A stretch of DNA of 40,848 bases from an uncultured Candidatus Saccharibacteria bacterium (GTDB lineage Bacteria; Patescibacteriota; Saccharimonadia; Saccharimonadales; CAZJQT01), in NCBI GenBank assembly GCA_964636215.1, contig CAZWRJ010000005.1:1-40848 (forward strand), read 5' to 3'. Shown one piece after another: positions 10,393 to 27,523 of the stretch. The position numbers and the translations under genes were made by a program. Numbering within the stretch: position 1 is the stretch's first letter; each line of letters begins with the position of its first letter. The notes under the pieces were generated by a model, which was not told the DNA's origin, made no database searches, and saw only the letters and a list, made by a program, of their open reading frames with translations.

Positions 10393-10394
10393 AA

Positions 10395-13099: not shown

Positions 13100-13220
13100 T
13101 TTCCCCTCAAAGTAATTATGCTAATTTTAACACAAGACCACTTCTATAAATGGTCATAATTACAACATTACAAATTGCTTAGTATCTCCGTAGGCGCCAA
13201 GTAATTGAATTCAATAAATC

Positions 13221-13297
13221 TGGAGGGCCAGCGGGGACTCGAACCCCGGACACCCTGCTTAAGAGGCAGGTGCTCTAACCAGCTGAGCTACTGGCCC
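13221..13297 (-). tRNA. tRNA-Lys (anticodon CUU), CCA encoded
   Basis: The reverse complement GGGCCAGTAGCTCAGCTGGTTAGAGCACCTGCCTCTTAAGCAGGGTGTCCGGGGTTCGAGTCCCCGCTGGCCCTCCA gives a canonical cloverleaf with anticodon loop CTCTTAA. Confidence 0.9.
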
Positions 13298-13359
13298 GTA
13301 AGCGGAAACTTTAGCAAATTACCCCTGTTTTGGCAATAACTACGCTACAATAACTTGGT

Positions 13360-14819: not shown

Positions 14820-16098
14820 ACTGTTCCCCGCGGTCTTTGTAATTTTTAAATAATCCAAAGCTGGCACAGCCAGTCGATAGAAGTACCACATCTCCAGACT
14901 GTGCATGCGACTTGGCGACGTCCATAATTTCTGACATAGACTTACCTCCCTCGATAACATCCATAAAACCGGCTTGCTTGAGTGCTTCGGCAATCGCCGG
15001 TCCGGTATCTCCGATAACAACCGCTTTACGAACATTGCCTTCTTTTACAGTTTTAGCTAACTTTTCATAAGTAGCACCCTTATCTGAACCACCCAGAATG
15101 ACAATCTTGGGTTGCTCAAAAGCCTCAATAGCCACAATGGCTGTTTCAGGTGTTGTGCCAAAAGAATCATCATAATATTTGGCGCCATCAAATTCTCTGA
15201 CCAATTCCAAGCGGTGTTCCAGACCAGTAAAGCTAGTGAGCACCGAACGCATAGCCCCAGTGTTTTTATCTATCTGCCAAACGGCGGTAACAGCAGCGCA
15301 GGCGTTTTGCCAGTTGTGCTTACCTAGTAGCTTTAGATCTTTTACATCACAAATCGTCTGCCCTTCTATAGATATTTTATCGTCAATAACTTCGGCGCCG
15401 GGTGATTTCATGTAGGGGATTTTATTACCGGCACTAATCTCGGTAACTTTTTTGGAGTTATCACTATCGGCGTAGTAAATTGCAATTTCCTCGGGTTTCT
15501 GCCAACGGAAAAGTTGTTGCTTGGCAGTTATATATTCTTCCAGGTTGTCGTGCCAATCTTGGTGTTCGGGCTCGACCATTAAACAAACTGCCAGAGGTGG
15601 GGAATACCTAAGATCAATTAATTGAAAATTAGCTAGTTCTAGTACAACCCAGTCATCAGCTTGAATACCGACTTTCAGCATATCTAGCGGCGGAATACCT
15701 ATATTGCCGCCCAGATGCACTTTTTTACCAGCAGCTTCCAGTATTTTGGCTATCAGCGTCGAAGTAGTGCCTTTACCTTTAGTGCCAGTTATACCAATGA
15801 TATTTCGGCTTGGACAAACCAAGAAAAATTCATTAGTAACACTAGTCATCTTATCTAGAATATTAGGCATATCCGGATTGGCGTTCTGTATATCACGTGG
15901 GTGCAAAGCAGGCGTGCGTACCAAAAGATCAAACCGCTCCAGATTCTTTAGGTAATCTTCGCCAAGCCGGCTAGCCACATCACTAGGTAAGTTAACCGAA
16001 GTATCTCGGTCACAGATCGTAATTTCGTTTCCATCACGGTTCCAATATTCATAGGCGCTCTGTCCTTGCCCAGCAAACCCGAGGATAGCTACTCGCAT
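14791..16098 (-). CDS. murD: UDP-N-acetylmuramoylalanine--D-glutamate ligase
   Basis: Rossmann-like N-terminus (VAILGFAGQGQS), Mur-ligase P-loop GITGTKGKGTT and a C-terminal DRGEQF. The 3' end overlaps murI by 29 nt (convergent). Confidence 0.85.
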   Translation of the reverse strand: MRVAILGFAGQGQSAYEYWNRDGNEITICDRDTSVNLPSDVASRLGEDYLKNLERFDLLVRTPALHPRDIQNANPDMPNILDKMTSVTNEFFLVCPSRNIIGITGTKGKGTTSTLIAKILEAAGKKVHLGGNIGIPPLDMLKVGIQADDWVVLELANFQLIDLRYSPPLAVCLMVEPEHQDWHDNLEEYITAKQQLFRWQKPEEIAIYYADSDNSKKVTEISAGNKIPYMKSPGAEVIDDKISIEGQTICDVKDLKLLGKHNWQNACAAVTAVWQIDKNTGAMRSVLTSFTGLEHRLELVREFDGAKYYDDSFGTTPETAIVAIEAFEQPKIVILGGSDKGATYEKLAKTVKEGNVRKAVVIGDTGPAIAEALKQAGFMDVIEGGKSMSEIMDVAKSHAQSGDVVLLSTGCASFGLFKNYKDRGEQFKKVVQELA

Positions 16099-16116: not shown

Positions 16117-16485
16117 TTAAGCAGCTAGTTCGGCTTTGACCATCTTGGCCACTTCGCTCGGGGTCATTTCTGCCTTAACAATAAAGCGCTTAATTCCAAG
16201 CTCCTTGAGCCCTGGCGGAGCCTCTTGTTCACCCATGTTAGTCAAAATAATCACCTTAATATCTGCACCCCATGTTTTCTTGCGCAGCTCCTCAAGCATT
16301 TCAGCACCGGTCATTTCTGGCATCATAAGATCTAGCAAGATAATATCTGGCTGCATTTTTTCAGCTAAGGCTAAGCCCAATTTACCGTTTTCGGCAGTTT
16401 CAACCTCAAAACCCTCAGTCTCGAACTTGATACGATACATCTGGCTAATTGCTTGGTCGTCTTCAATTATTGCGATTTTTGCCAT
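16117..16485 (-). CDS. single-domain response regulator (REC only)
   Basis: 122 aa. Acidic pocket IIEDD, phospho-acceptor context DIILLDLMMP, conserved T (ILTN) and K (VKA). No output domain. Confidence 0.85.
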   Translation of the reverse strand: MAKIAIIEDDQAISQMYRIKFETEGFEVETAENGKLGLALAEKMQPDIILLDLMMPEMTGAEMLEELRKKTWGADIKVIILTNMGEQEAPPGLKELGIKRFIVKAEMTPSEVAKMVKAELAA

Positions 16486-16497
16486 GTATGTATGCTA

Positions 16498-16905
16498 TCA
16501 CTTTTTAGATGGCTCAGGCTGGGGTTTAGCCGAACCATCTGATTTTAATGTGTGATTAACGATCTCAATTAACTCATTATTAGTGACATTAGCCTTTACA
16601 ATATAGCGCTCAAGGTTTAACTTTTTGAGCCCTTCTGGAGCTTCATATTCACTAACGTTAGTTAGAACAATAACTTTTATGTCCTTGCCCCAATCACTAG
16701 ATCGCATCTGCTTAAGGACATCTTCTCCTGAGAGCATGGGCAACATCAGATCCAGCAAAACCAAATCCGGCAACTCTTGTTTTATAAGCTTTAGTCCGCT
16801 TTCACCGTCGTAAGCTACTACACAGTCATAACCCGCCAGTTTAAGTCTGGTCTGGTAAATATCAGCTAACCAGTTATCATCCTCAATAATTGCAACTTTT
16901 GCCAT
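16498..16905 (-). CDS. single-domain response regulator (REC only), paralog of the neighbour
   Basis: 135 aa with the same motif set (IIEDD, DLVLLDLMLP, VLTN, VKA) plus a short basic tail. Confidence 0.85.
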   Translation of the reverse strand: MAKVAIIEDDNWLADIYQTRLKLAGYDCVVAYDGESGLKLIKQELPDLVLLDLMLPMLSGEDVLKQMRSSDWGKDIKVIVLTNVSEYEAPEGLKKLNLERYIVKANVTNNELIEIVNHTLKSDGSAKPQPEPSKK

Positions 16906-16935
16906 TACTTGTATCCTACGTAATAATACCGAATT

Positions 16936-18087
16936 TCACAACAAATCGGCTGACTTCACCTTTTCTGCAGAACTGTAAGGTATTGAAAGTGTTTCTAGGA
17001 CGTTAAGGCCTCGTTTGAGCGTTGTCATGTCAGCACCGTAGGATAATCGGACAAAACCGTGCAGTCTCGAAAATGCCCGACCAGGCACAATTATTAGACC
17101 ATGCTCGCTGGCTTTATTTACGAATTCGACATCCGTGAGATCATCCGGCGCTTTTACGAATGCATAAAATGCTCCTTGCATCCCATGTACATCGTAACCA
17201 AACTCCTTTAGTTTTGTAGCCATAAGATCGCGTTTGGCATGATATTTATGTAAGACTTCTGGTCTCTTTGTAAGGGCAGCCAAGGCAGCATGTTGGGCAA
17301 TAGATGAGCTTGACATGACAGTGTACTGCAGTAATTCGTTTATTGCATCAACAATCTCGTAAGGACCAGTAATGTAACCGACACGCCAACCGGTCATACC
17401 ATATTCCTTAGAAAAACCGTTCAGAGTAATAGTGTTTGGATATATACTGCCGATGCTAAAATGTTTACCTTCATAAACAAAATGTTCATAGATTTCATCT
17501 GAAATAATTAAGATATTATGCTCTGCTGCCATGGCTGCAATCTTCCTAAGTGTGGCTTCGGAGTAGACAGCTCCAGTTGGGTTGTTTGGCGAATTAATAA
17601 CAATTGCCTTAGTTCGATTGGTAATGCTTGCCTCTAATGTGGGAAGGTCCGGTTGGAAAGTAGGAAGCGTTGAGACATACACAACATGAGCACCTACCAT
17701 GCTAGCAAGGTGTGGGTACGGAGGATAATACGGGTCAAAAACTACAATTTCATCACCTAGATCAAGTATTGCCAAATATACTAACAATTGTCCTGTGGTC
17801 AGCCCAGGTACTATAGTTACGGTCTCGGGAGTTGCTGGTATTTTGTTCTCTCGCACGAGCTTTTCGGCAAGAGCCTTTCGAAGTTCTAGTAGACCATTCG
17901 CGGGAGTGTAGGTAGTTTTGTTCTCCTGGATTGCCTTAATGCCCGCTGCCTTTATGTGTTCAGCAGTCAATTCCTCAGGTACCCCAATACTTAAATCGAT
18001 CGGATCTTTAAGCAGCATTTGCTTCTGCATGGCATCACGAAAGTCGCTAGAGTCAAAATAATTTAGTCGCTGGGATATAAATGACAT
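16936..18087 (-). CDS. class I/II pyridoxal-phosphate aminotransferase (aspartate/aromatic aminotransferase-like)
   Basis: INSPNNPTG and the PLP-lysine motif GFSKEYGMTGWRVGY; 383 aa. Confidence 0.85.
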   Translation of the reverse strand: MSFISQRLNYFDSSDFRDAMQKQMLLKDPIDLSIGVPEELTAEHIKAAGIKAIQENKTTYTPANGLLELRKALAEKLVRENKIPATPETVTIVPGLTTGQLLVYLAILDLGDEIVVFDPYYPPYPHLASMVGAHVVYVSTLPTFQPDLPTLEASITNRTKAIVINSPNNPTGAVYSEATLRKIAAMAAEHNILIISDEIYEHFVYEGKHFSIGSIYPNTITLNGFSKEYGMTGWRVGYITGPYEIVDAINELLQYTVMSSSSIAQHAALAALTKRPEVLHKYHAKRDLMATKLKEFGYDVHGMQGAFYAFVKAPDDLTDVEFVNKASEHGLIIVPGRAFSRLHGFVRLSYGADMTTLKRGLNVLETLSIPYSSAEKVKSADLL

Positions 18088-18195
18088 GTTTATTTTATAT
18101 AGTAAATACTGATAATATTCTACACTAATTAATTATAAATCGCAACTGTTGAACCTGCATGCTACATTTTAGTCGTAAGATGGCATAATACTAAC

Positions 18196-19719
18196 ATGAG
18201 TAAACTATTACTACCTCGTGGGTATCGAAGTGCAGAATTGCTGCACCACCGTTTTCACAATCAACCCGAAAATGTGTGGATCCAAAGAGGACGCGAACGT
18301 ACTCTTAAGCTTTTTCATCAGATGGCACATCGTGTACCAGCCTATAAAGAATTTCTTAAAAACAATCATTTTTCGCCGAAATCTGTGCAATCGACTAGAG
18401 ATCTTTCAAAAATTCCACCCATAAATAAAGATAACTACTTACGACAATATCCCAAAAGTATGTTGTGCTGGGATGGAGAATTTGGTCACGGTCAATGGGT
18501 AATTTCAACCACCTCGGGTTCGACTGGTCAGCCCTATTATTTCCCACGTGAAAATAGCCAGGATTGGCAATACGCTGTCACTGCTGAGCTTTATTTACGA
18601 AATAATTTTACGATTCAAAACAAAAGCACACTTTATATTGTGGCTTTTCCTATGGGGGCATGGATTGGAGGCTTGTTTACTTATGAAGCACTAAAATTGG
18701 TAAGCGAGCACGGAGGCTATGACCTAAGCATAATTACGCCCGGTATTCATAAGCAGGAAGTCATTAATGCAGTCAAACAGCTTGGTGGCGACTTCGATCA
18801 AATTATCATTGGCGCCTATGCGCCCTTTCTGAAAGATATCTTAGACGACGGTGTGCGAGAGGGAATTGATTGGAAGCAATATAATATCGGTTTTGTGTTT
18901 TCGGCTGAAGCTTTTACTGAAAAGTTTAGAGACTACGTTTTTAAAATAACCAGTCCTAAACGTCCATTATTAGCTACACTTAACCATTACGGAACGGTTG
19001 ATCTGGGTACCATGGCCCACGAAACTCCTGAATCTGTGTTAATCAGGCGGCTTCTAGTAGAAAACAACCAGTTGAGTACTCTGTTTCCCGAGGCTGTCCG
19101 TCAGCCAACCTTCGCTCAGTTTGATCCCGGATTGTTCTATTTTGAAGAAGAAAACCACAATCTATTTTGTTCGGCTTTTAGCGGTCTACCATTGGTTCGT
19201 TACGACCTCAAAGATTACGGCGGCGTGCTAAAGCGAAGCGAAGTACATAAAACGTTGAGTCAGGCGGGGATAGACATTGAGGCAGCTATCAAAAAAAGTC
19301 ACATTGAAGACACTACTTGGAATTTGCCGTTTGTTTATGTGTATGAGCGCAATGACTTTAGCGTAAGTTATTACGCCTTTTTAATTTATCCGGATATGAT
19401 TCGCCGAGCACTGCAAGTCGATGAATTGGGTGATTCCATAACTAGCAAATTCACTATGCTGGTGGATTACAGTAGCCAGGGTCGTCAGCAGCTAACAATA
19501 CACATTGAGCTTGGGCACGGAGTTAAATCGGAAGAGGCACTTGCTAATAAAATACAAACTACAATCCACGAACGACTTATCGAAGAGAGCTCTGAATATC
19601 GTGAAGTTGCGAAAACCATGGGTGATATCGTTAAACCGTTTATTAAACTTTGGCAATATGAGGATCCTACTTATTTCCGTCCGGGCACAAAGCAAAAATG
19701 GGTTGTGAAAGAAAAGTAG
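18196..19719 (+). CDS. PaaK/coenzyme-F390-synthetase-like adenylate-forming enzyme
   Basis: AMP-binding P-loop variant TTSGSTGQPYYFPR about 105 aa from the N-terminus. The size and layout fit the phenylacetate-CoA ligase / CapK superfamily. The substrate cannot be called. Confidence 0.7.
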   Translation: MSKLLLPRGYRSAELLHHRFHNQPENVWIQRGRERTLKLFHQMAHRVPAYKEFLKNNHFSPKSVQSTRDLSKIPPINKDNYLRQYPKSMLCWDGEFGHGQWVISTTSGSTGQPYYFPRENSQDWQYAVTAELYLRNNFTIQNKSTLYIVAFPMGAWIGGLFTYEALKLVSEHGGYDLSIITPGIHKQEVINAVKQLGGDFDQIIIGAYAPFLKDILDDGVREGIDWKQYNIGFVFSAEAFTEKFRDYVFKITSPKRPLLATLNHYGTVDLGTMAHETPESVLIRRLLVENNQLSTLFPEAVRQPTFAQFDPGLFYFEEENHNLFCSAFSGLPLVRYDLKDYGGVLKRSEVHKTLSQAGIDIEAAIKKSHIEDTTWNLPFVYVYERNDFSVSYYAFLIYPDMIRRALQVDELGDSITSKFTMLVDYSSQGRQQLTIHIELGHGVKSEEALANKIQTTIHERLIEESSEYREVAKTMGDIVKPFIKLWQYEDPTYFRPGTKQKWVVKEK

Positions 19720-19720
19720 C

Positions 19721-20809
19721 ATGGAAACTCCAGTAATCATTGCAGAGGGTGAAGTCGAACAATTTAAGTCTGCCCACAAAATTTGGCGCGAGATCGATAT
19801 ATATAAAGACCAGCTAGCTGAACTGTATGAGGTTAATTTTCCCGCCGCACAAAATGACGAAGTCAAAAAGGCGGCTTATATACAAGAAAGCACACCAGCC
19901 CAATGCTGGGCATATTTTCCCTGGTCAGGCGTACTACTTCGAACCGTTACGGAACCTGAGCTTTTTCAACTAAGAACCAACCGGAATAAAAACTTGCTGA
20001 CCCAAGAAGAACAAGAAAAATGCGGCCAAGCCTGTGTTGGGGTTTTTGGTTTGTCAGTCGGCAATAGTATTGCCGTTACGTTGGCCTATAGCGGGATCGG
20101 CGGGCAATTAAGATTGGGAGATTTCGATAAGATTTCCACGACCAACCTGAACCGTTTACACGCTAGCTTGAGCGATGTTGGTAGGCCCAAAATCCAAGTA
20201 GCCGCGCAACAAATTTGGGAACTGAATCCTTTTGCCAAACTAGATTTATTCGATCAAGGAGTTAAAGAAGCCGATCTAGCAAGGTTTTTTGGTGAACCAA
20301 AACCCCTTCTCGTTTTTGATGAAATAGACGACTTCCAAATGAAGATCAAACTTCGCCTTAAGGCAAAAGAAGAGCATATACCAGTCGTTATGCTTACTAG
20401 CCTAGGTGATAGCGTACTAATTGATGTTGAACGTTTTGACCTCGACCCAGGTACTACCCTATTCAATGGGCTGATAGGAGACACACCAGAAGAAATACTG
20501 CGCTCTGAAATTGGCGAGCGTGAAAAAATAAAGTACGCCATTGATCTGGTAGGCAGCGATTACATCCCGGCGCGTGCGTTGGAATCACTCTTTGAAATAA
20601 ACCGGACTCTTATTGGTAGACCACAGCTGGCCGGCACAATCATGATAGATGGCGGACTGGCTGCTTTTGTGGCTAGACAAATCATTCTTGGTCAATCTAT
20701 GCCAAGCGGAAGATATTATCTGTCGTTGGATAAAACATTTGGTATCAAAAATGATGATGGTGCCCATAAGTCAGCTGTCGCGAAACTTGATCAACTACTG
20801 GGAAGATAA
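19721..20809 (+). CDS. ThiF/MoeB/HesA-family E1-like adenylyltransferase (similar to the N-terminal half of Rv1355c)
   Basis: Rossmann/E1 nucleotide motif GVFGLSVGNSIAVTLAYSGIGGQLRLGDFDKISTTNLNR. It starts 2 nt after the upstream stop. Confidence 0.75.
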   Translation: METPVIIAEGEVEQFKSAHKIWREIDIYKDQLAELYEVNFPAAQNDEVKKAAYIQESTPAQCWAYFPWSGVLLRTVTEPELFQLRTNRNKNLLTQEEQEKCGQACVGVFGLSVGNSIAVTLAYSGIGGQLRLGDFDKISTTNLNRLHASLSDVGRPKIQVAAQQIWELNPFAKLDLFDQGVKEADLARFFGEPKPLLVFDEIDDFQMKIKLRLKAKEEHIPVVMLTSLGDSVLIDVERFDLDPGTTLFNGLIGDTPEEILRSEIGEREKIKYAIDLVGSDYIPARALESLFEINRTLIGRPQLAGTIMIDGGLAAFVARQIILGQSMPSGRYYLSLDKTFGIKNDDGAHKSAVAKLDQLLGR

Positions 20810-22698
20810 TGGATTTAACAAAACCAAACTACCAAGCCTGGCTAATAAATGAGAAGGATTACCCGAAGAGTGGGACGATCGAAGAGAAGATTTGGTTCAT
20901 AGTTGGCTATGGCATTTTGGCACCGTCAACCCATAACACTCAACCCTGGCTGTTTGAGGTTAATGACTATAGGTTATTTATTACACCCGACTCAAAATTA
21001 ATGCTGACCGGTGCTGACCCATCAGGTCGCAATTTACAGATAAGTTTGGGCTGCTGTGTTACTAACATATTAATTGCAGCTGCGTACTTTGGTTTTAGGA
21101 CAAAGGATAAGTGGGCAAAAGATGCAATTACTATTACCTTTGAAAAATATCAACCAAATCGATCAATTAAGGATCTGTTTGATGCTATGCCTCAAAGATA
21201 TTCCGACAAAATGCCTTATAAAAATAAACCACTCAAGGCTAATCACAGCGATCAACTCTTGCTTAACCTATCTGATTCAGGCGGCAGCCTAATTCTCTTT
21301 TCTGACAAAGAGGTAATCGACCAGATTGCAAGGAAACAAGCTGCAGCTACTCTGGGTTATAAAAATAATCGGGAATTTTTTGAGGAACTCAGTCATTGGC
21401 TTCAACCATCAAAAACAGAATCAGAGTATGGCATGCCTGGTTTTGTAGTAGGTCTGTCCAATGGACAATCGAAGATCTTCAAACCATTAATTCGTAAACT
21501 TAAGCCAACTGTTAAACTGTTAGCCAAAAAAGACCATACAGCTGTTGCTAGTAGTTCAGCTATTGGCTTTATATCTACACAAAATGATGCTACGCAAGAT
21601 TGGTATAATGCTGGGAAAAAATATGAGCGGCTTGCTCTGCATGCGACATCGCTTGGACTGGTTATGGCTCCAATGGCAGCCTTAATTGAGGATAAAGAAC
21701 AACGTGCTCAAGTTTCTAATACTCTCAAAATAGATGGCAACCCACAAATATTCTTTCGATTAGGATATAGTAAGCATAAGCCATATCACACGCCAAGACG
21801 AAGGGTTGGACATTCTGCAATGGAAACACAACGACAATTGATGAAAAACCTGGGGATAGCAGTTGAGTCTAATCGCATTAAAATAGATTCCTACGATATT
21901 AATTACATCGTAGCAGGTAGTGGCAAGCCTGTGCTTATGCTGCACGGGGCTAATATTGGTTGGGCTCAATGGTTTCAAAACATTGTGGAAATTTCTAAAT
22001 ACTTTAAGGTCTACGCCTTGGATATGCCTGGGGCAGGCAGTTCAACTAAAGTTAACTTCCACGAAACGAATTTCGAAAAGGATTATCTACGCATCGTCGA
22101 TAAGTTTATTATGAAAATGAATCTGAATAATGTGAATATTGTAGGAAGCTCTTTCGGAGGCTGGGTCGCATTAAGACTGGCAATCGAAAACAAACCTTAT
22201 TTAAATAAAATAGTTTTAACTAATCCTCTTGGTTTTACTACACATATGCCTTTGAGATTCAGGCCTGTGTCTCTCAGGCCTTTTGCTTTGTTCCTGAGTA
22301 AAACTGCATTAAAGCCTGTTCGCAAGAATAAAAATCTAGAAAAGTTTATGAGGGATGTTTTCTACGATAAAAATTTACCGTTGTCTAGTTTGTTCGTGGA
22401 CTACTTTTACGAACTATCAAAAACCTCACACAATATTTTGTTTATTAGTCGGTTGGCTCATCCTACCGGCATGCGTAAGGAGTTATTTCTAGGTAAAGAT
22501 TTATCTAAAATTTCTAAACCCGTATTTGTTATCTGGGGTAAGGAAGACCCTCTGATGCCGTTTAAGACTGTAGAAAAAAATATCCATCTCATACCGGGAG
22601 TCAAACTAGAGACTCTTGAAGAAGTAGGGCATATGCCTCCGGTTGAGGTTCCTACTAAATTCAATAAACTAACAATAAATTTTTTGAAAGATAAATAG
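20809..22698 (+). CDS. fusion protein: Acg-type nitroreductase-like FMN domain + alpha/beta hydrolase domain
   Basis: N-terminal half carries the LAPSTHNTQPW signature of Acg/Rv2032-type nitroreductases. C-terminal half has HGANIGW, the nucleophile elbow GSSFGGW and a C-terminal GHMPPVE. Its ATG overlaps the upstream TAA by 1 nt. Confidence 0.7.
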   Translation: MDLTKPNYQAWLINEKDYPKSGTIEEKIWFIVGYGILAPSTHNTQPWLFEVNDYRLFITPDSKLMLTGADPSGRNLQISLGCCVTNILIAAAYFGFRTKDKWAKDAITITFEKYQPNRSIKDLFDAMPQRYSDKMPYKNKPLKANHSDQLLLNLSDSGGSLILFSDKEVIDQIARKQAAATLGYKNNREFFEELSHWLQPSKTESEYGMPGFVVGLSNGQSKIFKPLIRKLKPTVKLLAKKDHTAVASSSAIGFISTQNDATQDWYNAGKKYERLALHATSLGLVMAPMAALIEDKEQRAQVSNTLKIDGNPQIFFRLGYSKHKPYHTPRRRVGHSAMETQRQLMKNLGIAVESNRIKIDSYDINYIVAGSGKPVLMLHGANIGWAQWFQNIVEISKYFKVYALDMPGAGSSTKVNFHETNFEKDYLRIVDKFIMKMNLNNVNIVGSSFGGWVALRLAIENKPYLNKIVLTNPLGFTTHMPLRFRPVSLRPFALFLSKTALKPVRKNKNLEKFMRDVFYDKNLPLSSLFVDYFYELSKTSHNILFISRLAHPTGMRKELFLGKDLSKISKPVFVIWGKEDPLMPFKTVEKNIHLIPGVKLETLEEVGHMPPVEVPTKFNKLTINFLKDK

Positions 22699-24890
22699 TG
22701 GACTTCGAAAGCTTTAGACTACCAGTCCTAATATTTACGGTAGCCATCAACAGCTTCTTGGCCACGGTTGTTTTTAAAAGTAATCGTAAGAATGCTACAA
22801 ACCAAATTTTTGGTATCTTGTCAGTGGTTACAACACTATGGCTTGTCGATGTCTACCTATCAGTCTCACCTACATTCATAAATGAAGGTTTACTTTGGGT
22901 AAGAATGAGCATATTTCTAGCATCAGCCCAGATACTCTTTTTTTATTTACTCGCACACACGTTGCCCCACCAAGAGCTTCAGTTAAAAGGCAAACCTCTA
23001 TATTTATTGGTAGCTGGGACCCTTGTTGTTATGGCTACAGCCATTTCACCTTTTGCCTTTACGGGAGTGAATATTATCAACTCACGAGTTGAAGCAATAC
23101 CAGGTCCAGGATTGCCGCTGTTCGTATTATTTGCAATCAGTCTAAGTTTCGCAGCCATTTATAAGCTTTTTAACAAGCTTCGAAATGCTTCTGGCCACGA
23201 GAGGAATCAATATAGCTATGTAGTGGTAGGTTTGGTGATGATGCTAGGTCTACTTATTTTTACAGTACTAATACCAGTCGCAGTTTTTAAAAACAGTCAG
23301 TTTGTTTCTCTAGCTCCCCTTTATACGATTATTTTCTTAGGGATGACGACCATAGCTATTATTAGGCACCGCTTATTCAACATAAGAAGAGTCATAGCCC
23401 GATCGGTGACCTATTTGTTGGTTCTTACTTCGTTTGTGCTTGCTTATACCGGTGCCGTGTTACTAGTCTCATACATCTTCTTCAAAGATTCACATATCGA
23501 TACCAGTCACCATATAACATACATTCTTTTGGCACTTACTTTTACACCAACTTTATATTGGCTGAAACATCAATTCGACAAGGTTACAAATCGGATTTTC
23601 TTTAAGGATGCATATGATCCTCAAGAAGTGCTTAATGAACTCAGCGGTGCAATAGTGGCTGAAATTGATTTACATCGAATTCTTAATAAAACGCGCCTCT
23701 TGTTAACCTCCGCGATAAAAAGTTCATTTGTCGAATTTGTACTACTAGAGGATGATCATCCAAAACTAGAAGTGTCTAAAAACTTTAGAGAGCAGGATCA
23801 TTTACGCGATATCAGCAAACATATGCAAGAGCAAAATAAAGACGTACTCATTACCGAAGAATTGACTGAATATCATAGTCTTAAGGACGATTTAATTAAA
23901 GACGGTGTCGCTATAAGCTTAAGACTCAAAACCCAACACCAAGTAGTTGGTTACGTATTATTCGGTGAGAAACAAAGTGGCGATGCATACAGTAAGCAAG
24001 ACGAAAAACTTCTTAGCATCGTGGCAAATGAGCTAGCAGTTGCAATCCAGAATGCTATGCGTTTTGAAGAGATCAAACAATTTAATGTCACCCTGCAGCA
24101 GAAAGTCGATATGGCCACAAAACAACTGCGCTTAACAAATGAAAAACTACGGGAAATTGACGCTACCAAGGATGAATTTATCAGCATGGCTTCTCACCAA
24201 CTCAGAACACCTCTCACTAGTGTTAAGGGCTATTTGAGTATGGTGCTAGAGGGTGATGCCGGTAAAGTTACGGGCACCCAACGTAAACTGCTGGACCAAG
24301 CTTTCACTAGCTCTCAACGCATGGTTTACCTGATAGCCGACTTGCTGAATGTTTCCCGACTCAAAACTGGTAAGTTTATTATAGAAACAACCCCAACTAA
24401 TTTAGCGGATATGGTGGAGGGTGAGATCAACCAACTTACAGAAACAGCCAAAGCACGTAAGCTGGTGCTTAGCTACTCCAAGCCCAAAAAGTTCCCAACT
24501 CTTATGTTAGACGAAACTAAAATGCGCCAGGTGGTTATGAACTTTGTCGACAACGCCATTTACTACACACCTAGTGGCGGACATATTGAAGTCAAGCTCT
24601 CGGAGGATGATAAAAATATTCAGCTAACTGTTGAGGACGACGGTATTGGCGTGCCTAAGGACGAACAGCCTCACCTGTTCGGAAAATTCTACCGGGCTGG
24701 CAATGCCCAGAAGGCCCGGCCGGACGGTACTGGGCTCGGACTTTTCATGGCTAAGAAAGTTGTGATTGCTCAAGGTGGGAATATTGTCTTTCATAGTGAG
24801 CCAGGCAAGGGCAGTACCTTTGGTTTTGCATTTGAAAAAGCAAAGCTGCTCCCTGTAGTTACCGAGCCCGAAACTGCTGTTGCCAAATAA
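22698..24890 (+). CDS. sensor histidine kinase (N-terminal 7TM sensor, GAF-like, HisKA, HATPase_c)
   Basis: About 7 hydrophobic helices in the first 290 aa. H-box SMASHQLRTPLTSVKGY, N-box NFVDNAIYYTP, G1 DDGIGV and G2 GTGLGL. Its GTG start overlaps the upstream TAG by 1 nt. Confidence 0.85.
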   Translation: MDFESFRLPVLIFTVAINSFLATVVFKSNRKNATNQIFGILSVVTTLWLVDVYLSVSPTFINEGLLWVRMSIFLASAQILFFYLLAHTLPHQELQLKGKPLYLLVAGTLVVMATAISPFAFTGVNIINSRVEAIPGPGLPLFVLFAISLSFAAIYKLFNKLRNASGHERNQYSYVVVGLVMMLGLLIFTVLIPVAVFKNSQFVSLAPLYTIIFLGMTTIAIIRHRLFNIRRVIARSVTYLLVLTSFVLAYTGAVLLVSYIFFKDSHIDTSHHITYILLALTFTPTLYWLKHQFDKVTNRIFFKDAYDPQEVLNELSGAIVAEIDLHRILNKTRLLLTSAIKSSFVEFVLLEDDHPKLEVSKNFREQDHLRDISKHMQEQNKDVLITEELTEYHSLKDDLIKDGVAISLRLKTQHQVVGYVLFGEKQSGDAYSKQDEKLLSIVANELAVAIQNAMRFEEIKQFNVTLQQKVDMATKQLRLTNEKLREIDATKDEFISMASHQLRTPLTSVKGYLSMVLEGDAGKVTGTQRKLLDQAFTSSQRMVYLIADLLNVSRLKTGKFIIETTPTNLADMVEGEINQLTETAKARKLVLSYSKPKKFPTLMLDETKMRQVVMNFVDNAIYYTPSGGHIEVKLSEDDKNIQLTVEDDGIGVPKDEQPHLFGKFYRAGNAQKARPDGTGLGLFMAKKVVIAQGGNIVFHSEPGKGSTFGFAFEKAKLLPVVTEPETAVAK

Positions 24891-24923
24891 CTTGTGCTTT
24901 CAAAACAATTATGTTTATAGTTA

Positions 24924-24952
24924 TTGACAAGTTGTGATGGTTGTGGTAGAAT
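24924..24952 (+). promoter_or_regulatory. near-consensus sigma70-type promoter (TTGACA-17 nt-TGgTAGAAT) with no ORF behind it
   Basis: TTGACA at 24924-24929, a 17-nt spacer, an extended -10 TG at 24944-24945 and TAGAAT at 24947-24952, all read directly from the sequence. Confidence 0.6.
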
Positions 24953-24955
24953 TTG

Positions 24956-25044
24956 GTCATCTTTGCGCGGAGCAAGGAGGTGGGTACATCTCAGGACCGG
25001 TGGATCTCTATAGGAGACCCGGGATGTTTCGTCCGCAAGATGAC
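24956..25044 (+). ncRNA. candidate structured RNA: ~89-nt imperfect long hairpin starting at the predicted TSS
   Basis: GTCATCTT (24956-24963) pairs with AAGATGAC (25037-25044). Further pairing GCG/GG with CCGC, CATC/GATG, CCGG/CCGG and an apical TCTC-TATAG-GAGA. It contains an orphan AAGGAGGTG. No known RNA family recognised. Confidence 0.35.
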
Positions 25045-25394
25045 ACCTTAACAAGTCAGATCATTACAGTTCATTTCTAGAGTTACTTTGATAGCTCTGA
25101 AATAAGCCTCCGGTAAGTTTACTAGAGGCGTTTTAGCGTTTTGGTAAATCAATGTAGATCAGCTAGTATCAGGCAGCTATAGCAAATGTGGTTAATATAC
25201 CACCTCTGTTAATAAGCATTACTGGTATTAGATGGTCTGCATTGGTTGAGTGGTATCAACTGATTGGTTGAGCTTTTTGCTCCCAACTGGTCAATATCTC
25301 CCAAACGCAGAACTGTGACAACAATTTACTTTCAAGATTCAAAGAAGTCTGGAGCAGCACTTTAATAGTCATAACTGGCTATTAGGGCGCTACT

Positions 25395-25419
25395 CCAGAC
25401 CCTTCCGGGCCTGGTTTTT
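25395..25419 (+). terminator. putative intrinsic terminator at the left edge of the high-GC island
   Basis: CCAGACCC-TTCC-GGGCCTGG (8-bp stem with one A/C mismatch) followed by TTTTT. Confidence 0.4.
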
Positions 25420-25527
25420 GCGGGAACATCTGACGCCGACGGCTTCTGCCTAAGCTGAGGATGGTCCTCGGGCCCCGCCCGGAACCTAAGTCCCCAATCA
25501 ACGACAGAAGAAAGGTAGGTGTTCGCC

Positions 25528-26256
25528 ATGCCGGCGACCCAACCCCCGTCCCAACGTCCGCCCCGCGGTCGCGGTGCTCAAGGTGGAGGCCATCAGCCCC
25601 CGCCCACCAACCCCACGCAGGCCTGGATGACCGGAGTCGATCAGTTCGGCGCCGACACCGTGGCCTGGATGGCGCGCACCGACGGCCGTCTCGACTTCAC
25701 CGACGCCCAGCTCGACTGGCAGCGCGACTTCAACGGTCTCGCCGTCCAGTGGGCCGAAGCCGTCGACGAGTGGGGTCAGACCGCCGAGACGCGGTTCACC
25801 ACGCTGTTCGACCGGACCGAGGCGCTCAGGGCGCACGTCAACGACAACCGTCAGGCCACGACCAACCTGCACCGTCGACTCACCGTCGTCGAGCGGGCCG
25901 CTGGCATCGCCACTCGGATCCCGTTGTGGGGCTACCTCATCGTCACCGTGGCTGGCTGTCTCGCTGGGCTCCTCTGGAGCGCTGCCGACTTCGCCCGCGA
26001 CGCGACGATCACGGACGCGGCCGGTACGGTCTCGCACGTGACGGTCAGCTACCAGATCGCCGAGAACCCGCTGTCCGCCATCATCGTCGGCCTGCTCGTC
26101 GGCATCATCGCCCTGGTCTTCGTACCCAGGGAGGTGCCCCCCGAGCCGGAACCGCAGAACACGGGCGCCAACCCCCAGGCCCAGCCCGCCGCCCAGCAGC
26201 AGCCGCAGAACGCGCAACCCGCGCCGACGCAGCCGCAGCCCGTGGCAGGACTCTGA
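25528..26256 (+). CDS. membrane protein with two TM helices and Pro/Gln-rich termini (island gene 1)
   Basis: This is the frame with strong GC3 bias and a realistic composition. TM spans are IPLWGYLIVTVAGCLAGLLWSAA and LSAIIVGLLVGIIALVFV. ATG 25528 lies 8 nt after GGTAGG; the alternative is GTG 25519. Competing frames are Arg/Gly-rich junk. Confidence 0.75.
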   Translation: MPATQPPSQRPPRGRGAQGGGHQPPPTNPTQAWMTGVDQFGADTVAWMARTDGRLDFTDAQLDWQRDFNGLAVQWAEAVDEWGQTAETRFTTLFDRTEALRAHVNDNRQATTNLHRRLTVVERAAGIATRIPLWGYLIVTVAGCLAGLLWSAADFARDATITDAAGTVSHVTVSYQIAENPLSAIIVGLLVGIIALVFVPREVPPEPEPQNTGANPQAQPAAQQQPQNAQPAPTQPQPVAGL

Positions 26257-26380
26257 GGGCGCAAGGAATAGAGGCCTAAAAACCTCACCGGCATGACACC
26301 GGTCAACATGTCCGTAATATAACGGGGTAGCTCCGTTACGCGCATCCGTCCCTGGCGTGGTCAATTAGGGAACGTGGAAA

Positions 26381-27331
26381 ATGGAAAGGATGGTGGTCCA
26401 GATGGGCCTTCTTCGCCGAGTCGGAGGTGGCGTCGCCGCGGGCCTCCTCCTTCTGTTTGTGGTGTCGGCGTTCTTCCCGGTGCTGAACCCGTTCGCGGGC
26501 GCAGCAACGACTACGTCGACGACGTCAACGACAACACCTCCCGCGGGGTGTACCAGCCAGTTGCACTTCTACGCGACGGACGTGTCCAGCAACTTCAACG
26601 GACCGCCGGTCATCCAGACCGACGTTCCCGGACAAGAAGCTGAGCTCCACACCCGTCGCTGCGCAGACCCGGCCCTTGTGGTCGAACACGCGCATGTCAA
26701 CCAGTTGCCCGGCTTCGCCGAGTTGAATGGTGACCAGCAGTTCGCGGACAAGGTCCGAGAACTGGCCTGGAACCATGAGCTCTGGGGACAGACCATCAAG
26801 CAGCTGGAAGACAAGGAGGCCACGGCAGTCGCTTCCGACGAGACCATGAGCGGGTCGTATGACACGCTCTACATGCTCGACGGTGTGACAGACGTTCCGC
26901 TGATCCGTAAGGCACAGCCCGATCGTCCGTCGTTCGCGGTCCTGCGGTTCACCTACGCCGATGGTTCGGTGGTGAACTTCAAGCTCGACTGCGGGTTCCA
27001 GCCAGTCGGGCAGTTCCCGAACGTGCCGCCGGTGGAGACACCTCCCCCGCCTCACGTTCCCCCGCCGCCGTCAACCACGACGACGGTGTGCATCCCCAAC
27101 GGGCACGAGAACTGCGGCAAGGACGCATCAACGTCGCCGTCCACCTCGATCGTGGTTACCTGTCCGGATGGATGGCATCTCCCTCGTGGAGGTACTTCCG
27201 TCAGCGACTGCGTCAAAGATGTGGTCATCACCACGACCACCACCACGGCCCCGGCTCCGCCCACAACGGTAAGCCCACCCGTGACACCCCCAAACACCAG
27301 CCCACCGACCACAGGCGTTCAGCCTCACTGA
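26381..27331 (+). CDS. secreted Thr/Pro-rich protein (island gene 2)
   Basis: GC3-biased frame. Signal peptide (GGGVAAGLLLLFVVSAFFPVLNPFAGA), a poly-Thr linker, a ~200-aa globular part, then a PPVETPPPPHVPPPP linker, a 4-Cys module and a TTTTTAPAPPTTVSPPVTPP tail. Start could be ATG 26381, 26390 or 26402. Confidence 0.75.
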   Translation: MERMVVQMGLLRRVGGGVAAGLLLLFVVSAFFPVLNPFAGAATTTSTTSTTTPPAGCTSQLHFYATDVSSNFNGPPVIQTDVPGQEAELHTRRCADPALVVEHAHVNQLPGFAELNGDQQFADKVRELAWNHELWGQTIKQLEDKEATAVASDETMSGSYDTLYMLDGVTDVPLIRKAQPDRPSFAVLRFTYADGSVVNFKLDCGFQPVGQFPNVPPVETPPPPHVPPPPSTTTTVCIPNGHENCGKDASTSPSTSIVVTCPDGWHLPRGGTSVSDCVKDVVITTTTTTAPAPPTTVSPPVTPPNTSPPTTGVQPH

Positions 27332-27368
27332 TCGACCGGCAAGTACGGAAGGGAGGTGGTCCAAGTTC

Positions 27369-27437
27369 GGGTCCTGGTGCACGTGCTGCCCAAGCACACT
27401 CTCCCACTCACCCCTCCGGGAGAGAGCACCAGGACCC
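27369..27437 (+). repeat. nested inverted repeat (three-way-junction-like) at the right edge of the island
   Basis: Perfect 12-bp outer stem GGGTCCTGGTGC / GCACCAGGACCC. It encloses two hairpins: GTGCT-GCCCA-AGCAC and CTCTCCC-(12 nt)-GGGAGAG. Confidence 0.55.
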
Positions 27438-27523
27438 TCAGGTCTCTTGAAAGTATTAAGCTCTAGGCTTTGAGCGCGCAGCTAATGCGTGATCGCCTAT
27501 TGAGCGAAGTTGTCACAAAACTT

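What the first reader, a model, noticed from the sequence alone, without database searches (positions are those of the whole stretch)
18196..24890. Translationally coupled operon: PaaK-like ligase, ThiF-like E1, Acg-nitroreductase/hydrolase fusion and a 7TM-GAF histidine kinase
Four genes are packed with 2-nt, 1-nt-overlap and 1-nt-overlap junctions (19719/19721; ATG overlapping TAA at 20809; GTG overlapping TAG at 22698), which implies co-translation. Two different adenylate-forming enzymes plus an FMN nitroreductase-type domain and a serine hydrolase form a small-molecule or peptide activation-and-modification toolkit. I saw no recognisable substrate, carrier or precursor gene.

From memory, mycobacterial Rv1355c (MoeY)-family proteins fuse this ThiF-like domain to an Acg-type nitroreductase domain. 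Here the same pair is split and re-fused differently. That suggests a conserved but functionally uncharacterised ThiF+nitroreductase partnership of actinobacterial flavour, hard-wired here to a membrane sensor kinase. Such an enzymatic cassette is unexpected in a minimal, biosynthetically poor genome.
Basis: partly seen in the sequence, partly recalled or inferred. Interest (0 to 1): 0.65.

Follow-up and report, generated by a model that had tools for sequence, protein, structure and literature searches.

The report
Oxazolone-type enzyme cassette wired to sensor kinase
A soil Saccharibacterium (an ultrasmall CPR bacterium) carries a gene cluster, conserved across many CPR lineages, that joins enzymes resembling the recently discovered oxazolone-making pathway to a membrane sensor kinase, which suggests these minimal bacteria make and sense a small amino-acid-derived signal.

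Summary
The four ORFs and their tight junctions are real.

The unit is larger than reported. A divergent arm at 16117-18087 carries an aminotransferase and two receiver-only response regulators.

The cluster is strongly co-conserved. In 55 independent CPR loci found through the ligase alone:
- ThiF is present in 55/55.
- The 7TM kinase is present in 54/55.
- The nitroreductase is present in 41/55.
- An aminotransferase (29) or a Leu/Trp-type amino-acid dehydrogenase (21) is present, never both.
- Fusion proteins link dehydrogenase-ligase-ThiF and ThiF-nitroreductase-hydrolase.

The ThiF plus nitroreductase pair is no longer uncharacterised. It is the oxazolone synthetase chemistry of OxzB, TyzB/TyzC and TrzS (TrzS is Rv1355c).

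The new points are these. The acyl-CoA N-acyltransferase of all known pathways is missing; the ligase and the transaminase or dehydrogenase stand in its place, apparently doing its job. An azlactone-type hydrolase is sometimes added. The cassette is almost always linked to a two-component system.

I read it as a new variant of a known kind, probably a self-made ligand plus its sensor. A recent actinobacterial origin is not supported.

The parts
16117..16485 (-). Response regulator 2, receiver domain only (122 aa)
   Evidence: PF00072, 80 bits, no output domain. A response regulator lies in the cluster in 39/55 related loci.
16498..16905 (-). Response regulator 1, receiver domain only (135 aa)
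   Evidence: PF00072, 66.6 bits. The 'LLDLMLP' acceptor-Asp context is visible in the sequence.
16936..18087 (-). Class I/II PLP aminotransferase (383 aa), divergently transcribed from the ligase
   Evidence: PF00155, 228 bits. Best PDB relatives are T. thermophilus AspAT and P. horikoshii aromatic aminotransferase. It is present in 29/55 loci and is replaced by a Leu/Trp-type dehydrogenase in 21/55, never both.
18088..18195 (.). 108-bp divergent intergenic region, presumed to hold both promoters
   Evidence: This is the only non-coding gap inside the unit. Only weak promoter-like matches were found. The promoter function is inferred.
18196..19719 (+). PaaK-fold adenylate-forming ligase (507 aa), a CPR-specific family
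   Evidence: No Pfam hit. Weak N-terminal PaaK hits (E 6e-9). The AF2 model has pLDDT 82 and pTM 0.84. Foldseek matches: PaaK1 and BT_0428 at E 1e-18, then HCL, AjiA1 and ClxA. Invariant motifs are TSGSTGxPYYFPR, YGTVDxGT, RYDLKD and a C-terminal K499-Q-K-W. Identity across CPR is 49-83%.
19721..20809 (+). ThiF/E1-like ATP-dependent cyclase candidate of the TrzS/Rv1355c type (362 aa)
   Evidence: NF005901 N-terminal half scores 290 bits; the next-best ThiF model scores 72 bits. D203 aligns with MoeB D130 and is at least 90% conserved, together with NLNR142-145, K157 and DxERxD235-240. The alignment with Rhodococcus and Mycolicibacterium Rv1355c-family proteins is collinear. The AF2 model has pLDDT 90.
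20809..21828 (+). Nitroreductase-superfamily flavin-dependent oxidase domain, Acg type (residues ~1-340 of the fusion)
   Evidence: NF047509 scores 216 bits against a cutoff of 199. The Rv1355c C-terminal half scores 87 bits. PDB 2ymv (Acg) matches at E 4e-11. APSxHNxQPW and R130 are conserved. The domain boundary is approximate.
21829..22698 (+). Alpha/beta-hydrolase domain, closest to MCP hydrolases and enol-lactonases (residues ~341-629)
   Evidence: PF00561, 74 bits. HsaD and BphD are the best PDB hits, E 4e-28. G-S-S108-F-G-G, D240, H268 and H39-G40 (domain numbering) are at least 90% conserved. The domain occurs only where the nitroreductase is present (11/11).
22698..24890 (+). Sensor histidine kinase: 7TM region, probable GAF domain, HisKA and HATPase_c (730 aa, GTG start)
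   Evidence: HisKA_7TM 37.9 bits, GAF_3 22.4 bits (below cutoff), HisKA 60 bits, HATPase_c 99.6 bits. The H-box SHQLRTPL and the N and G boxes are visible. It is present in 54/55 related loci.

Best explanation
The unit spans 16117-24890. It reads as a small-molecule biosynthesis cassette of the oxazolone-synthetase type, coupled to its own two-component system.

Proposed order of steps:
1. The aminotransferase (a Leu/Trp-type amino-acid dehydrogenase in other CPR lineages) interconverts a hydrophobic or aromatic amino acid and its 2-oxo acid.
2. The PaaK-fold ligase uses ATP to activate a carboxylic acid. It delivers an N-acyl amino acid, either directly like the CoA-independent PaaK-fold ligases AjiA1 and ClxA, or through a thioester. 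In this way it replaces the acyl-CoA N-acyltransferase (OxzA/TyzA/TrzA) of the known pathways.
3. The ThiF-like enzyme adenylates the amino-acid carboxylate and cyclises it to a 5(4H)-oxazolone, as TrzS, TyzB and OxzB do.
4. The flavin oxidase desaturates C-alpha/C-beta.
5. The fused Ser-His-Asp hydrolase opens or transfers the azlactone, for example to an N-acyl dehydroamino acid.
6. The product, or an intermediate, is the ligand of the 7TM-(GAF) histidine kinase. The kinase phosphorylates the receiver-only regulators.

Shown:
- Domain identities.
- Intact catalytic motifs.
- Conserved synteny and gene fusions.

Inferred:
- Substrates.
- Order of steps.
- CoA independence of the ligase.
- That the kinase senses the product.
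For: - **ThiF identity.** The window's ThiF belongs with Rv1355c/TrzS rather than with generic ThiF or MoeB: 290 bits against at most 72 bits. They share the motifs GLSVG, NLNR, ExD, DVERFD, PQL and SGR. The catalytic Asp is conserved.
- **Known chemistry.** TrzS, TyzB/TyzC and OxzB are experimentally shown oxazolone synthetases (PMC12856293, PMC10404671, 10.1101/2020.06.11.147165).
- **Oxidase linkage.** The flavin oxidase is adjacent here with a 1-nt overlap and is fused to ThiF in relatives.
- **Ligase fold.** It is PaaK-like with intact adenylation motifs. Its structural neighbours include the PaaK-fold ligases AjiA1 and ClxA; that these act without CoA is from my own knowledge of that literature.
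- **No acyltransferase.** No GNAT or OxzA-like gene is in the window. No other conserved gene appears across the loci.
- **Amino acid / 2-oxo acid step.** The aminotransferase and the Leu/Trp-type dehydrogenase are mutually exclusive (29 against 21, never both). This is non-orthologous displacement pointing to an amino acid / 2-oxo acid step.
- **Fusions.** ELFV-ligase-ThiF (P0203), ligase-ThiF (P0206), ThiF-NTR-ABH (P0209, P0124) and ThiF-ABH (P0201) are collinear with the proposed order.
- **Hydrolase placement.** The hydrolase occurs only where the oxidase is present (11/11).
- **Kinase linkage.** The kinase is present in 54/55 loci and a response regulator in 39/55.
- **Literature context.** Oxazolones are water-labile and have been proposed as signals, and trzAS sits next to c-di-GMP genes (PMC12856293; 10.1101/2020.06.11.147165).
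Against: - No product is known, and everything chemical here is inferred.
- The oxidase domain fits the Acg-family model (216 bits) better than the TrzS oxidase half (87 bits). True Rv1355c proteins score only about 115-119 bits on the Acg model.
- The residues I map to TrzS(Msmeg) R540 and Q651 are not conserved in the window protein. That mapping is itself uncertain.
- The oxidase is absent from 14/55 loci, so desaturation is not essential to whatever the core does.
- The ligase could simply make a CoA thioester.
- The kinase could sense an external cue and regulate the enzymes, rather than sense their product.
- The receiver-only regulators give no hint of the output.
- The GAF call is below the Pfam threshold.
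Confidence: 0.45

Rival explanations
1. The enzymes form a catabolic or salvage route for aromatic or branched-chain amino acids. Transamination gives a 2-oxo or arylacetic acid, a PaaK-like step makes a CoA thioester, and an MCP-type hydrolase follows. The kinase merely regulates the route in response to substrate.
For: - Source databases name the ligase 'phenylacetate-CoA ligase'.
- The fold is closest to PaaK1.
- The hydrolase is closest to HsaD and BphD, which cleave C-C bonds.
- An aminotransferase or dehydrogenase is the usual first step of amino-acid breakdown.
Against: - The ligase scores 35 bits against a 700-bit PaaK cutoff.
- No other paa or ring-cleavage genes are in the window or conserved across the loci.
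- ThiF (55/55) and the flavin oxidase have no role in such routes.
- The hydrolase is present in only 11/55 loci.
- CPR bacteria generally lack the downstream respiratory and TCA capacity (my own knowledge).
Confidence: 0.12
2. This is a peptide or protein modification system (RiPP-like or E1-like). ThiF adenylates the C-terminus of a peptide, of a carrier protein, or of the kinase or regulator itself. The nitroreductase-type enzyme then oxidises the product, as in azoline-to-azole (TOMM) chemistry.
For: - Most characterised ThiF-like enzymes act on peptides or proteins (PMC12596934).
- Foldseek neighbours include AclA, PaaA and MccB.
- TOMM clusters pair an E1-like protein with a nitroreductase-fold dehydrogenase (my own knowledge).
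- ThiF has an extra N-terminal domain of about 90 aa with no structural match in the listed alignments, which cover only about 260 columns of the E1 core.
Against: - No YcaO, ThiS/MoaD-like protein, protease or transporter is present.
- No conserved small ORF is present; the intragenic gaps are at most 1 nt, and the region downstream of the kinase is not conserved even in the closest relative.
- By sequence, ThiF, including its N-terminal extension, is collinear with TrzS-family enzymes, which act on small molecules.
- Fusion to an amino-acid dehydrogenase and an acid ligase argues for a small-molecule substrate.
Confidence: 0.08
3. The kinase does not sense the cassette's product. The conserved adjacency reflects regulation in the other direction: the two-component system senses a host or environmental cue and controls the enzymes. 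Alternatively, it reflects a shared but chemically unrelated role in envelope or host-interaction physiology.
For: - Receiver-only regulators act by protein-protein contact and could target the enzymes directly.
- The 7TM region is poorly conserved (median 29% identity) while the enzymes are well conserved.
- The cluster sits among cell-wall genes such as MurD, the racemase, MurB and MurA.
Against: - Linkage survives gene-order shuffling and strand changes across at least 10 CPR lineages. This is more typical of a producer/receptor pair.
- The cell-wall neighbours are syntenic only within Saccharimonadia.
Confidence: 0.25

Closest known systems
TrzA/TrzS (Rv1356c/Rv1355c) N-acyl tryptazolone pathway of mycobacteria and Rhodococcus (PMC12856293)
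   Same: - The ThiF-like cyclase and the nitroreductase-superfamily flavin oxidase are homologous and collinear with TrzS.
- The catalytic Asp of the adenylation motif is conserved.
- Some CPR relatives carry the same ThiF-oxidase fusion.
- Both sit next to signalling genes: c-di-GMP genes in Mtb, GGDEF on the Rhodococcus plasmid.
   Different: - ThiF is a separate protein here, not fused to the oxidase.
- Scores fall below the family cutoff: 290 + 87 bits here and 353-382 bits for CPR fusions, against a cutoff of 476.
- There is no TrzA-type acyl-CoA N-acyltransferase.
- A PaaK-fold ligase plus an aminotransferase or dehydrogenase is present instead.
- The oxidase fits the Acg-family model better.
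- A hydrolase and a histidine kinase with response regulators are added.
OxzA/OxzB oxazolone synthetase (Pseudoalteromonas rubra) and TyzA/TyzB/TyzC (Mtb Rv2336-2338c)
   Same: The two-step logic is the same: ATP-dependent ThiF cyclisation plus O2/FMN-dependent desaturation of an N-acyl amino acid. The Tyz system is also split into separate ThiF and oxidase genes (PMC10404671).
   Different: Those systems start from a fatty acyl-CoA and an N-acyl amino acid synthase, and they make lipid-like tyrazolones. I did not have OxzB, TyzB or TyzC sequences, so no direct comparison was made.
PaaK phenylacetate-CoA ligase and the PaaK-fold ligases AjiA1 and ClxA (benzoxazole pathways)
   Same: The two-domain adenylate-forming fold is shared (TM 0.76 to PaaK1, E 1e-18). 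The P-loop, the RYxxxD hinge motif and the C-terminal Lys are present.
   Different: - Identity is only 15-16%.
- The protein is about 80 aa longer.
- There is no Pfam hit.
- It scores 35 bits against a 700-bit PaaK cutoff.
- The gene context is unrelated to paa catabolism.
- The acceptor (CoA or an amine) is unknown.
Acg / Rv3131 / Rv3127 family (DosR-regulon 'nitroreductases' of M. tuberculosis; PDB 2ymv)
   Same: The window domain passes the NCBIfam Acg-family cutoff (216 against 199 bits) over the full model length. Its only PDB nitroreductase hit is Acg.
   Different: Here the domain is fused to a hydrolase and genetically tied to a ThiF cyclase. Acg-family proteins of Mtb are stand-alone and have no assigned substrate.
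Producer-plus-receptor operons such as agrBDCA (peptide signal with a multi-TM histidine kinase) or bphO-bphP and pyp-pcl-tal (ligand/chromophore synthesis genes next to the sensor)
   Same: The genetic logic is the same: ligand-making enzymes are encoded with a sensor kinase and its regulator. This comparison rests on my own knowledge of those systems.
   Different: There is no homology of the biosynthetic parts. Ligand sensing by this kinase is untested.

Membership tests
Oxazolone synthetase pathways (OxzAB / TyzACB / TrzAS) | ThiF-like cyclase of the TrzS/TyzB/OxzB sequence cluster | tested here: met
   NF005901 (Rv1355c family) N-terminal half scores 290 bits, E 2e-86, against at most 72 bits for any other ThiF model. 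The alignment with two annotated Rv1355c-family proteins is collinear.
Oxazolone synthetase pathways (OxzAB / TyzACB / TrzAS) | Conserved Asp of the adenylation motif (TrzS D217; ThiF/MoeB D130 equivalent) | tested here: met
   D203 aligns with MoeB D130. It is at least 90% conserved in 76 CPR homologues and aligned with the ExD motif of Rv1355c-family proteins.
Oxazolone synthetase pathways (OxzAB / TyzACB / TrzAS) | Nitroreductase-superfamily flavin-dependent oxidase adjacent to or fused with the ThiF gene | tested here: met
   The next gene overlaps ThiF by 1 nt. ThiF-NTR fusions occur in relatives. The oxidase is present in 41/55 loci.
Oxazolone synthetase pathways (OxzAB / TyzACB / TrzAS) | Oxidase belongs to the FDO-A subgroup and keeps the residues probed in TrzS (R540, Q651) | tested here: inconclusive
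   - The window domain scores 216 bits on the Acg-family model and 87 bits on the Rv1355c C-terminal half.
- True Rv1355c proteins score 115-119 bits on the Acg model.
Oxazolone synthetase pathways (OxzAB / TyzACB / TrzAS) | Adjacent acyl-CoA-dependent N-acyltransferase (OxzA/TyzA/TrzA, N-acyl amino acid synthase) | tested here: not met
   There is no acyltransferase or GNAT Pfam hit on any window ORF of at least 120 aa. Unbiased clustering of ORFs around the cluster in the related loci (duplicates removed) found no further conserved family.
Oxazolone synthetase pathways (OxzAB / TyzACB / TrzAS) | Product is an N-acyl 4-alkylidene/arylidene-oxazol-5-one | not testable with these tools
   This requires expression and LC-MS/UV.
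Rv1355c family protein (NCBIfam NF005901, equivalog) | Single ThiF-oxidase fusion protein scoring at least 476 bits | tested here: not met
   The window genes are split and score 290 and 87 bits. CPR fusions P0170 and P0124 score 382 and 353 bits. Actinobacterial members score 840-1015 bits.
Phenylacetate-CoA ligase PaaK | Equivalog-level sequence match and paa catabolic gene context | tested here: not met
   It scores 35 bits against a cutoff of 700 and 27 bits against 646. No paa genes are in the window. Only the fold is shared.
Phenylacetate-CoA ligase PaaK | Forms a CoA thioester | not testable with these tools
   The acceptor specificity cannot be read from the model.
Acg family FMN-binding oxidoreductase (NCBIfam NF047509, subfamily) | Full-length match above the curated cutoff | tested here: met
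   It scores 216.2 bits against a cutoff of 199. Residues 31-333 match model positions 2-315 of 319.
Meta-cleavage-product (C-C bond) hydrolases HsaD/BphD | Ser-His-Asp triad on an alpha/beta-hydrolase fold, and an equivalog-level match | tested here: inconclusive
   The triad S108/D240/H268 and the HG oxyanion motif are conserved. HsaD is the best PDB hit (E 4e-28). However, the score is 104 bits against a cutoff of 400. It belongs to the fold, but membership of the C-C hydrolase family is not shown.
Two-component sensor histidine kinase with HisKA_7TM sensor | HisKA_7TM, HisKA and HATPase_c above Pfam cutoffs; H, N and G boxes present | tested here: met
   Scores are 37.9/28.6, 60.2/26.9 and 99.6/26.4 bits. 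The boxes are visible in the sequence.
Two-component sensor histidine kinase with HisKA_7TM sensor | GAF domain between the membrane region and HisKA | tested here: inconclusive
   GAF_3 scores 22.4 bits against a cutoff of 27. Weak GAF or GAF_2 hits recur in homologues.
TOMM / azole RiPP clusters (E1-like protein + YcaO + FMN dehydrogenase + precursor) | YcaO cyclodehydratase and a precursor peptide gene | tested here: not met
   No YcaO is in the window. No conserved small ORF is present.

The most novel reading that the evidence does not exclude
CPR bacteria carry a self-contained chemical signalling circuit. They build an oxazolone, or a ring-opened N-acyl dehydroamino acid, entirely from amino acids and ATP, without acyl-CoA. 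The co-encoded 7TM-GAF histidine kinase is its dedicated receptor.

This would be the first small-molecule signalling system defined in Patescibacteria. It would also be the first physiological role assigned to natural oxazolones.

A more extreme sub-variant has roughly 0.05 probability. In it, the arylidene-oxazolone, which absorbs at 360-400 nm and shows E/Z isomerism, is a bound ligand or chromophore of the kinase. That would be analogous to bphO-bphP or pyp-pcl-tal operons.
Probability: 0.3. Interest if true: 0.85.

Novelty: new variant of a known kind. Interest (0 to 1): 0.66.

Why it matters
- **A rare enzymatic module in minimal genomes.** Patescibacteria/CPR have stripped-down genomes, yet this seven-to-eight-domain module is retained across Saccharimonadia, Paceibacteria, Microgenomatia-type and ABY1-type lineages. 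Its ligase is 49-83% identical across them. That makes it one of the few conserved non-housekeeping enzymatic systems in the group, and I found no description of it in the searchable literature.
- **An open question becomes testable.** The authors of the oxazolone papers state that the physiological role of oxazolones is unresolved and speculate about signalling. A natural, near-obligate genetic link between oxazolone-type enzymes and a sensor kinase with its regulators offers a direct test: make the product, then add it to the kinase.
- **An acyl-CoA-free entry route.** The cassette suggests a way into N-acyl amino acid / oxazolone chemistry that uses a PaaK-fold ligase plus a transaminase or dehydrogenase.
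- **A lead on Acg-family function.** It places an Acg-family oxidase in a defined pathway context. This may inform the unknown function of the DosR-regulon Acg proteins of M. tuberculosis.

Tried and rejected
- **Exact-protein look-up of the window ThiF:** not on record.
- **RNA evidence for co-transcription:** only four soil-metagenome DNA runs hold the sequence and no RNA runs were found. Co-transcription was therefore not tested.
- **Anti-phage defence:** PADLOC gave only generic E1 and HATPase similarities. Rejected.
- **Precursor peptide:** no space inside the operon. The small ORFs downstream of the kinase lie in sequence that is not conserved even in the closest relative. Rejected.
- **Hidden acyltransferase or other conserved partner:** unbiased ORF clustering found only shadow frames and flanking housekeeping genes.
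- **Recent actinobacterial transfer of the operon:** the GC content matches the genome, the distribution is CPR-wide, and the NJ tree puts three actinobacterial ThiFs outside the CPR clade (small sample, no bootstrap). Not supported.
- **Structured RNA in the 600-nt gap after the kinase:** only chance-level miRNA-model hits to a hairpin.
- **Origin of the high-GC island:** tblastn of both island ORFs against plasmids found nothing.
- **Presence in a genetically tractable Saccharibacterium:** the S. epibionticum gene tables contain no 'ThiF' or 'phenylacetate' annotation. The cluster is probably absent there, but this rests on annotation words only.
- **Mapping of TrzS R540/Q651:** done only indirectly through a Mycolicibacterium homologue. 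I treat it as inconclusive.
- **Names for distant ThiF representatives:** mostly unavailable.

Full report
**1. Observation**

The junctions are TAG-c-ATG (1-nt spacer at 19720, not 2 nt), TAATG (1-nt overlap at 20809) and TAGTG (1-nt overlap at 22698). Comparable overlaps occur elsewhere in the window, so tight packing is normal for this genome. The GC content of the operon (37-44%) matches the window average, about 43% outside the island noted in section 8.

HMM searches confirm the domain calls:
- ThiF: PF00899.
- Acg-family FMN oxidoreductase: NF047509, 216 bits against a cutoff of 199, residues 31-333.
- Alpha/beta hydrolase: residues ~351-627.
- Kinase: HisKA_7TM, HisKA and HATPase_c. 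The GAF signal is sub-threshold (22 against 27 bits).

The first protein has no Pfam hit and only weak N-terminal PaaK similarity (E 6e-9). An AlphaFold2 model (pLDDT 82, pTM 0.84) matches PaaK1 and BT_0428 over both domains (Foldseek E 1e-18, TM 0.76, 15-16% identity). The next matches are 2-hydroxyisobutyryl-CoA ligase and the benzoxazole-pathway ligases AjiA1 and ClxA. Invariant motifs fit an active adenylate-forming enzyme: TSGSTGxPYYFPR, YGTVDxGT, RYDLKD and a C-terminal K-Q-K-W.

**2. Organism and extent of the unit**

Homologue names place the window in Candidatus Saccharimonadales (TM7, CPR). The sequence comes from soil metagenomes.

Upstream and divergent from the ligase lie a class I/II aminotransferase (16936-18087) and two receiver-only response regulators (16498-16905 and 16117-16485). 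The rest of the window is housekeeping: MurA, SHMT, MurB, FolC-like, DHFR, FolD, a racemase, MurD-like, glycolysis genes, UvrD and tmRNA.

**3. Co-conservation**

Contexts of ligase and NTR-hydrolase homologues show the same cluster with shuffled fusions.

A scan of species-representative genomes with a ligase alignment found 321 loci. The best 80 have 49-83% identity and carry CPR labels: Saccharimonadia, Paceibacteria, and Doudna-, Magasanik-, Woyke-, Gottesman-, Lipton-, Kaiser-, Roizman-, Woese- and Adlerbacteria. A few MAGs are labelled Gammaproteobacteria or Polyangiaceae. These interleave with CPR sequences in the ThiF tree, so the labels are probably wrong, but I did not verify this.

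I compared the window's domains with all ORFs of these loci by BLASTP. Among 55 non-duplicate loci with adequate flanks:

| Component | Loci (of 55) |
|---|---|
| ThiF | 55 |
| 7TM kinase | 54 |
| Nitroreductase | 41 |
| Response regulator | 39 |
| Aminotransferase | 29 |
| Leu/Trp-type ELFV dehydrogenase | 21 |
| Aminotransferase and dehydrogenase together | 0 |
| Hydrolase | 11 |

- The hydrolase occurs only where the nitroreductase is present.
- Gene order and strand vary, which argues against simple inherited synteny.
- Fusion proteins tie the parts together: ELFV-ligase-ThiF (P0203, 1242 aa), ligase-ThiF (P0206), ThiF-NTR (many), ThiF-NTR-ABH (P0124, P0209) and ThiF-ABH (P0201, P0215).
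- Unbiased clustering of all other ORFs near the cluster found no further conserved gene and no acyltransferase.

**4. What the ThiF/nitroreductase pair is**

The literature now says otherwise.
- OxzB of Pseudoalteromonas rubra, a ThiF-nitroreductase fusion, is an oxazolone synthetase acting on N-acyl tyrosine made by OxzA (bioRxiv 10.1101/2020.06.11.147165; reviewed in PMC12596934).
- M. tuberculosis TyzA/TyzB/TyzC make N-acyl tyrazolones (PMC10404671).
- Rv1356c/Rv1355c are TrzA/TrzS and make N-acyl tryptazolones. ThiF-type ATP-dependent cyclisation is followed by O2-dependent desaturation (PMC12856293).

The window ThiF scores 290 bits on the Rv1355c-family model (positions 39-349 of 722), against at most 72 bits on any other ThiF or MoeB model. 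I retrieved annotated Rv1355c-family proteins from Rhodococcus and Mycolicibacterium plasmids. The alignment is collinear through both halves and shares GLSVG, NLNR, ExD, DVERFD, PQL and SGR in ThiF, and APSxxNxQPW plus a conserved Arg in the oxidase.

D203 aligns with MoeB D130, the residue class mutated as D217A in TrzS, and is conserved in the CPR family. The ThiF model (pLDDT 90) matches AclA, ThiF, MoeB, PaaA, MccB and TcdA over the E1 core only. The N-terminal ~90 residues are family-specific but shared by sequence with TrzS-type proteins.

**5. Where it departs from the known pathways**

- **(a) No N-acyltransferase.** All known pathways begin with an acyl-CoA-dependent N-acyl amino acid synthase. 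None is present here.
- **(b) A different front end.** The ligase is universal by construction of the sample, and a transaminase or a Leu/Trp-type dehydrogenase occurs in 50/55 loci. The dehydrogenase's best hits are LeuDH at 229 bits, TrpDH at 205 bits and ScyB at 270 bits. The two enzymes are non-orthologous but catalyse the same amino acid / 2-oxo acid interconversion. Their strict alternation is the clearest functional clue.
- **(c) The oxidase is Acg-like by profile.** It scores 216 bits on the Acg model, whereas true Rv1355c proteins score 115-119 bits on that model. The positions I tentatively map to TrzS R540 and Q651 are not conserved.
- **(d) A hydrolase is sometimes appended.** It has an intact Ser108/Asp240/His268 triad and is closest to HsaD, BphD and enol-lactonases.
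- **(e) A two-component system is nearly always attached.**

**6. Mechanism proposed**

A hydrophobic or aromatic amino acid and its 2-oxo acid are interconverted. The ligase activates an acid with ATP and supplies an N-acyl amino acid. ThiF adenylates its carboxylate and closes the oxazolone. The flavin oxidase introduces the exocyclic double bond. The hydrolase opens or transfers the azlactone.

Supporting inferences:
- An ATP-driven front end would suit organisms that generally lack fatty-acid and acyl-CoA metabolism. That is my own knowledge of CPR genomics and was not tested on this 40-kb window.
- The order of domains in natural fusions (dehydrogenase-ligase-ThiF; ThiF-oxidase-hydrolase) matches this sequence of steps.
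- The kinase most simply acts as the receptor of the product. Oxazolones are labile and have been proposed as signals, and trzAS neighbours c-di-GMP genes.

None of this chemistry has been demonstrated. My confidence in the whole scheme is about 0.45.

**7. Rivals**

- **Catabolism of aromatic acids.** It fits the database names but not the gene content.
- **RiPP/E1-type peptide modification.** It lacks YcaO, a precursor and a carrier.
- **Regulation running from the kinase to the enzymes.** This remains a serious alternative for the signalling half.
- **Anti-phage defence.** No support.

**8. Origin**

The module is not a recent actinobacterial import. Its composition matches the genome, it is CPR-wide, and three actinobacterial ThiFs fall outside the CPR clade in an NJ tree (limited sampling, no support values).

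By contrast, a 2-kb high-GC island immediately downstream is absent from the closest relative and looks foreign.

**9. Novelty**

I found no paper linking CPR with ThiF, oxazolones or this kinase. The chemistry class is known. What appears undescribed is the front end, the hydrolase, the obligate two-component linkage and the CPR-wide distribution. I therefore rate it as a new variant of a known kind.

Noticed in passing
window 25400-27500: A high-GC island (57-64% against ~43% for the window) lies between the kinase and tRNA-Glu. The plausible genes are 25519-26256(+), a P/Q-rich protein with two TM segments, and 26381-27331(+), a T/P-rich secreted protein with a signal/TM segment. Neither has a Pfam hit. 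The island is absent from the closest relative L006, which is otherwise syntenic from tRNA-Lys to tRNA-Glu. It is possibly foreign DNA from a high-GC organism, such as an actinobacterial host. tblastn against plasmids found nothing.
   Followed up: partly
window 24891-25500: About 600 nt of non-coding sequence follows the kinase stop. It holds the best promoter-like site of the region (TTGACA-17-TAGAAT with TG, 24924-24952) and a long hairpin at ~25145-25250. There is no credible Rfam match and the stretch is not conserved in L006.
   Followed up: partly
window 54-1580 (-): The MurA-like enolpyruvyl transferase (EPSP_synthase domain, residues 77-493) carries an N-terminal XRE-type HTH domain (residues 14-65). 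This is an unusual fusion of a DNA-binding domain to a cell-wall enzyme.
   Followed up: no
L001 (CP064992.1, complete Ca. Saccharibacteria genome) 8742-15830: In this genome the same cluster looks fragmented. The aminotransferase is split into two ORFs, ThiF is truncated to 271 aa, and the kinase is split into a 7TM part and a catalytic part. This is either pseudogenisation or indel errors in the assembly.
   Followed up: no
L001 3294-4055 (-): A heliorhodopsin gene (PF18761) lies about 6 kb upstream of the cluster in a related Saccharibacterium.
   Followed up: no
L004, L032-L034, L046, L048, L051, L053, L060, L070, L079, L080: Public MAG records labelled 'uncultured Gammaproteobacteria' or 'Polyangiaceae' carry this CPR-type cluster. 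In the ThiF tree they interleave with named CPR lineages, so their taxonomic labels are probably wrong.
   Followed up: partly
L086 (Rhodococcus sp. AQ5-07 plasmid) 2935-7028: An Rv1355c-family (TrzS-like) gene sits on a plasmid next to a GGDEF-domain gene. This echoes the c-di-GMP neighbourhood reported for trzAS in M. tuberculosis.
   Followed up: no
L087 (Streptomyces sp. NBC_01471 plasmid) 4830-6628: A stand-alone TrzS-type ThiF (422 bits on the Rv1355c model) is followed, with overlap, by a GNAT-family gene and has no nitroreductase. This is another variant architecture of the family, outside CPR.
   Followed up: no
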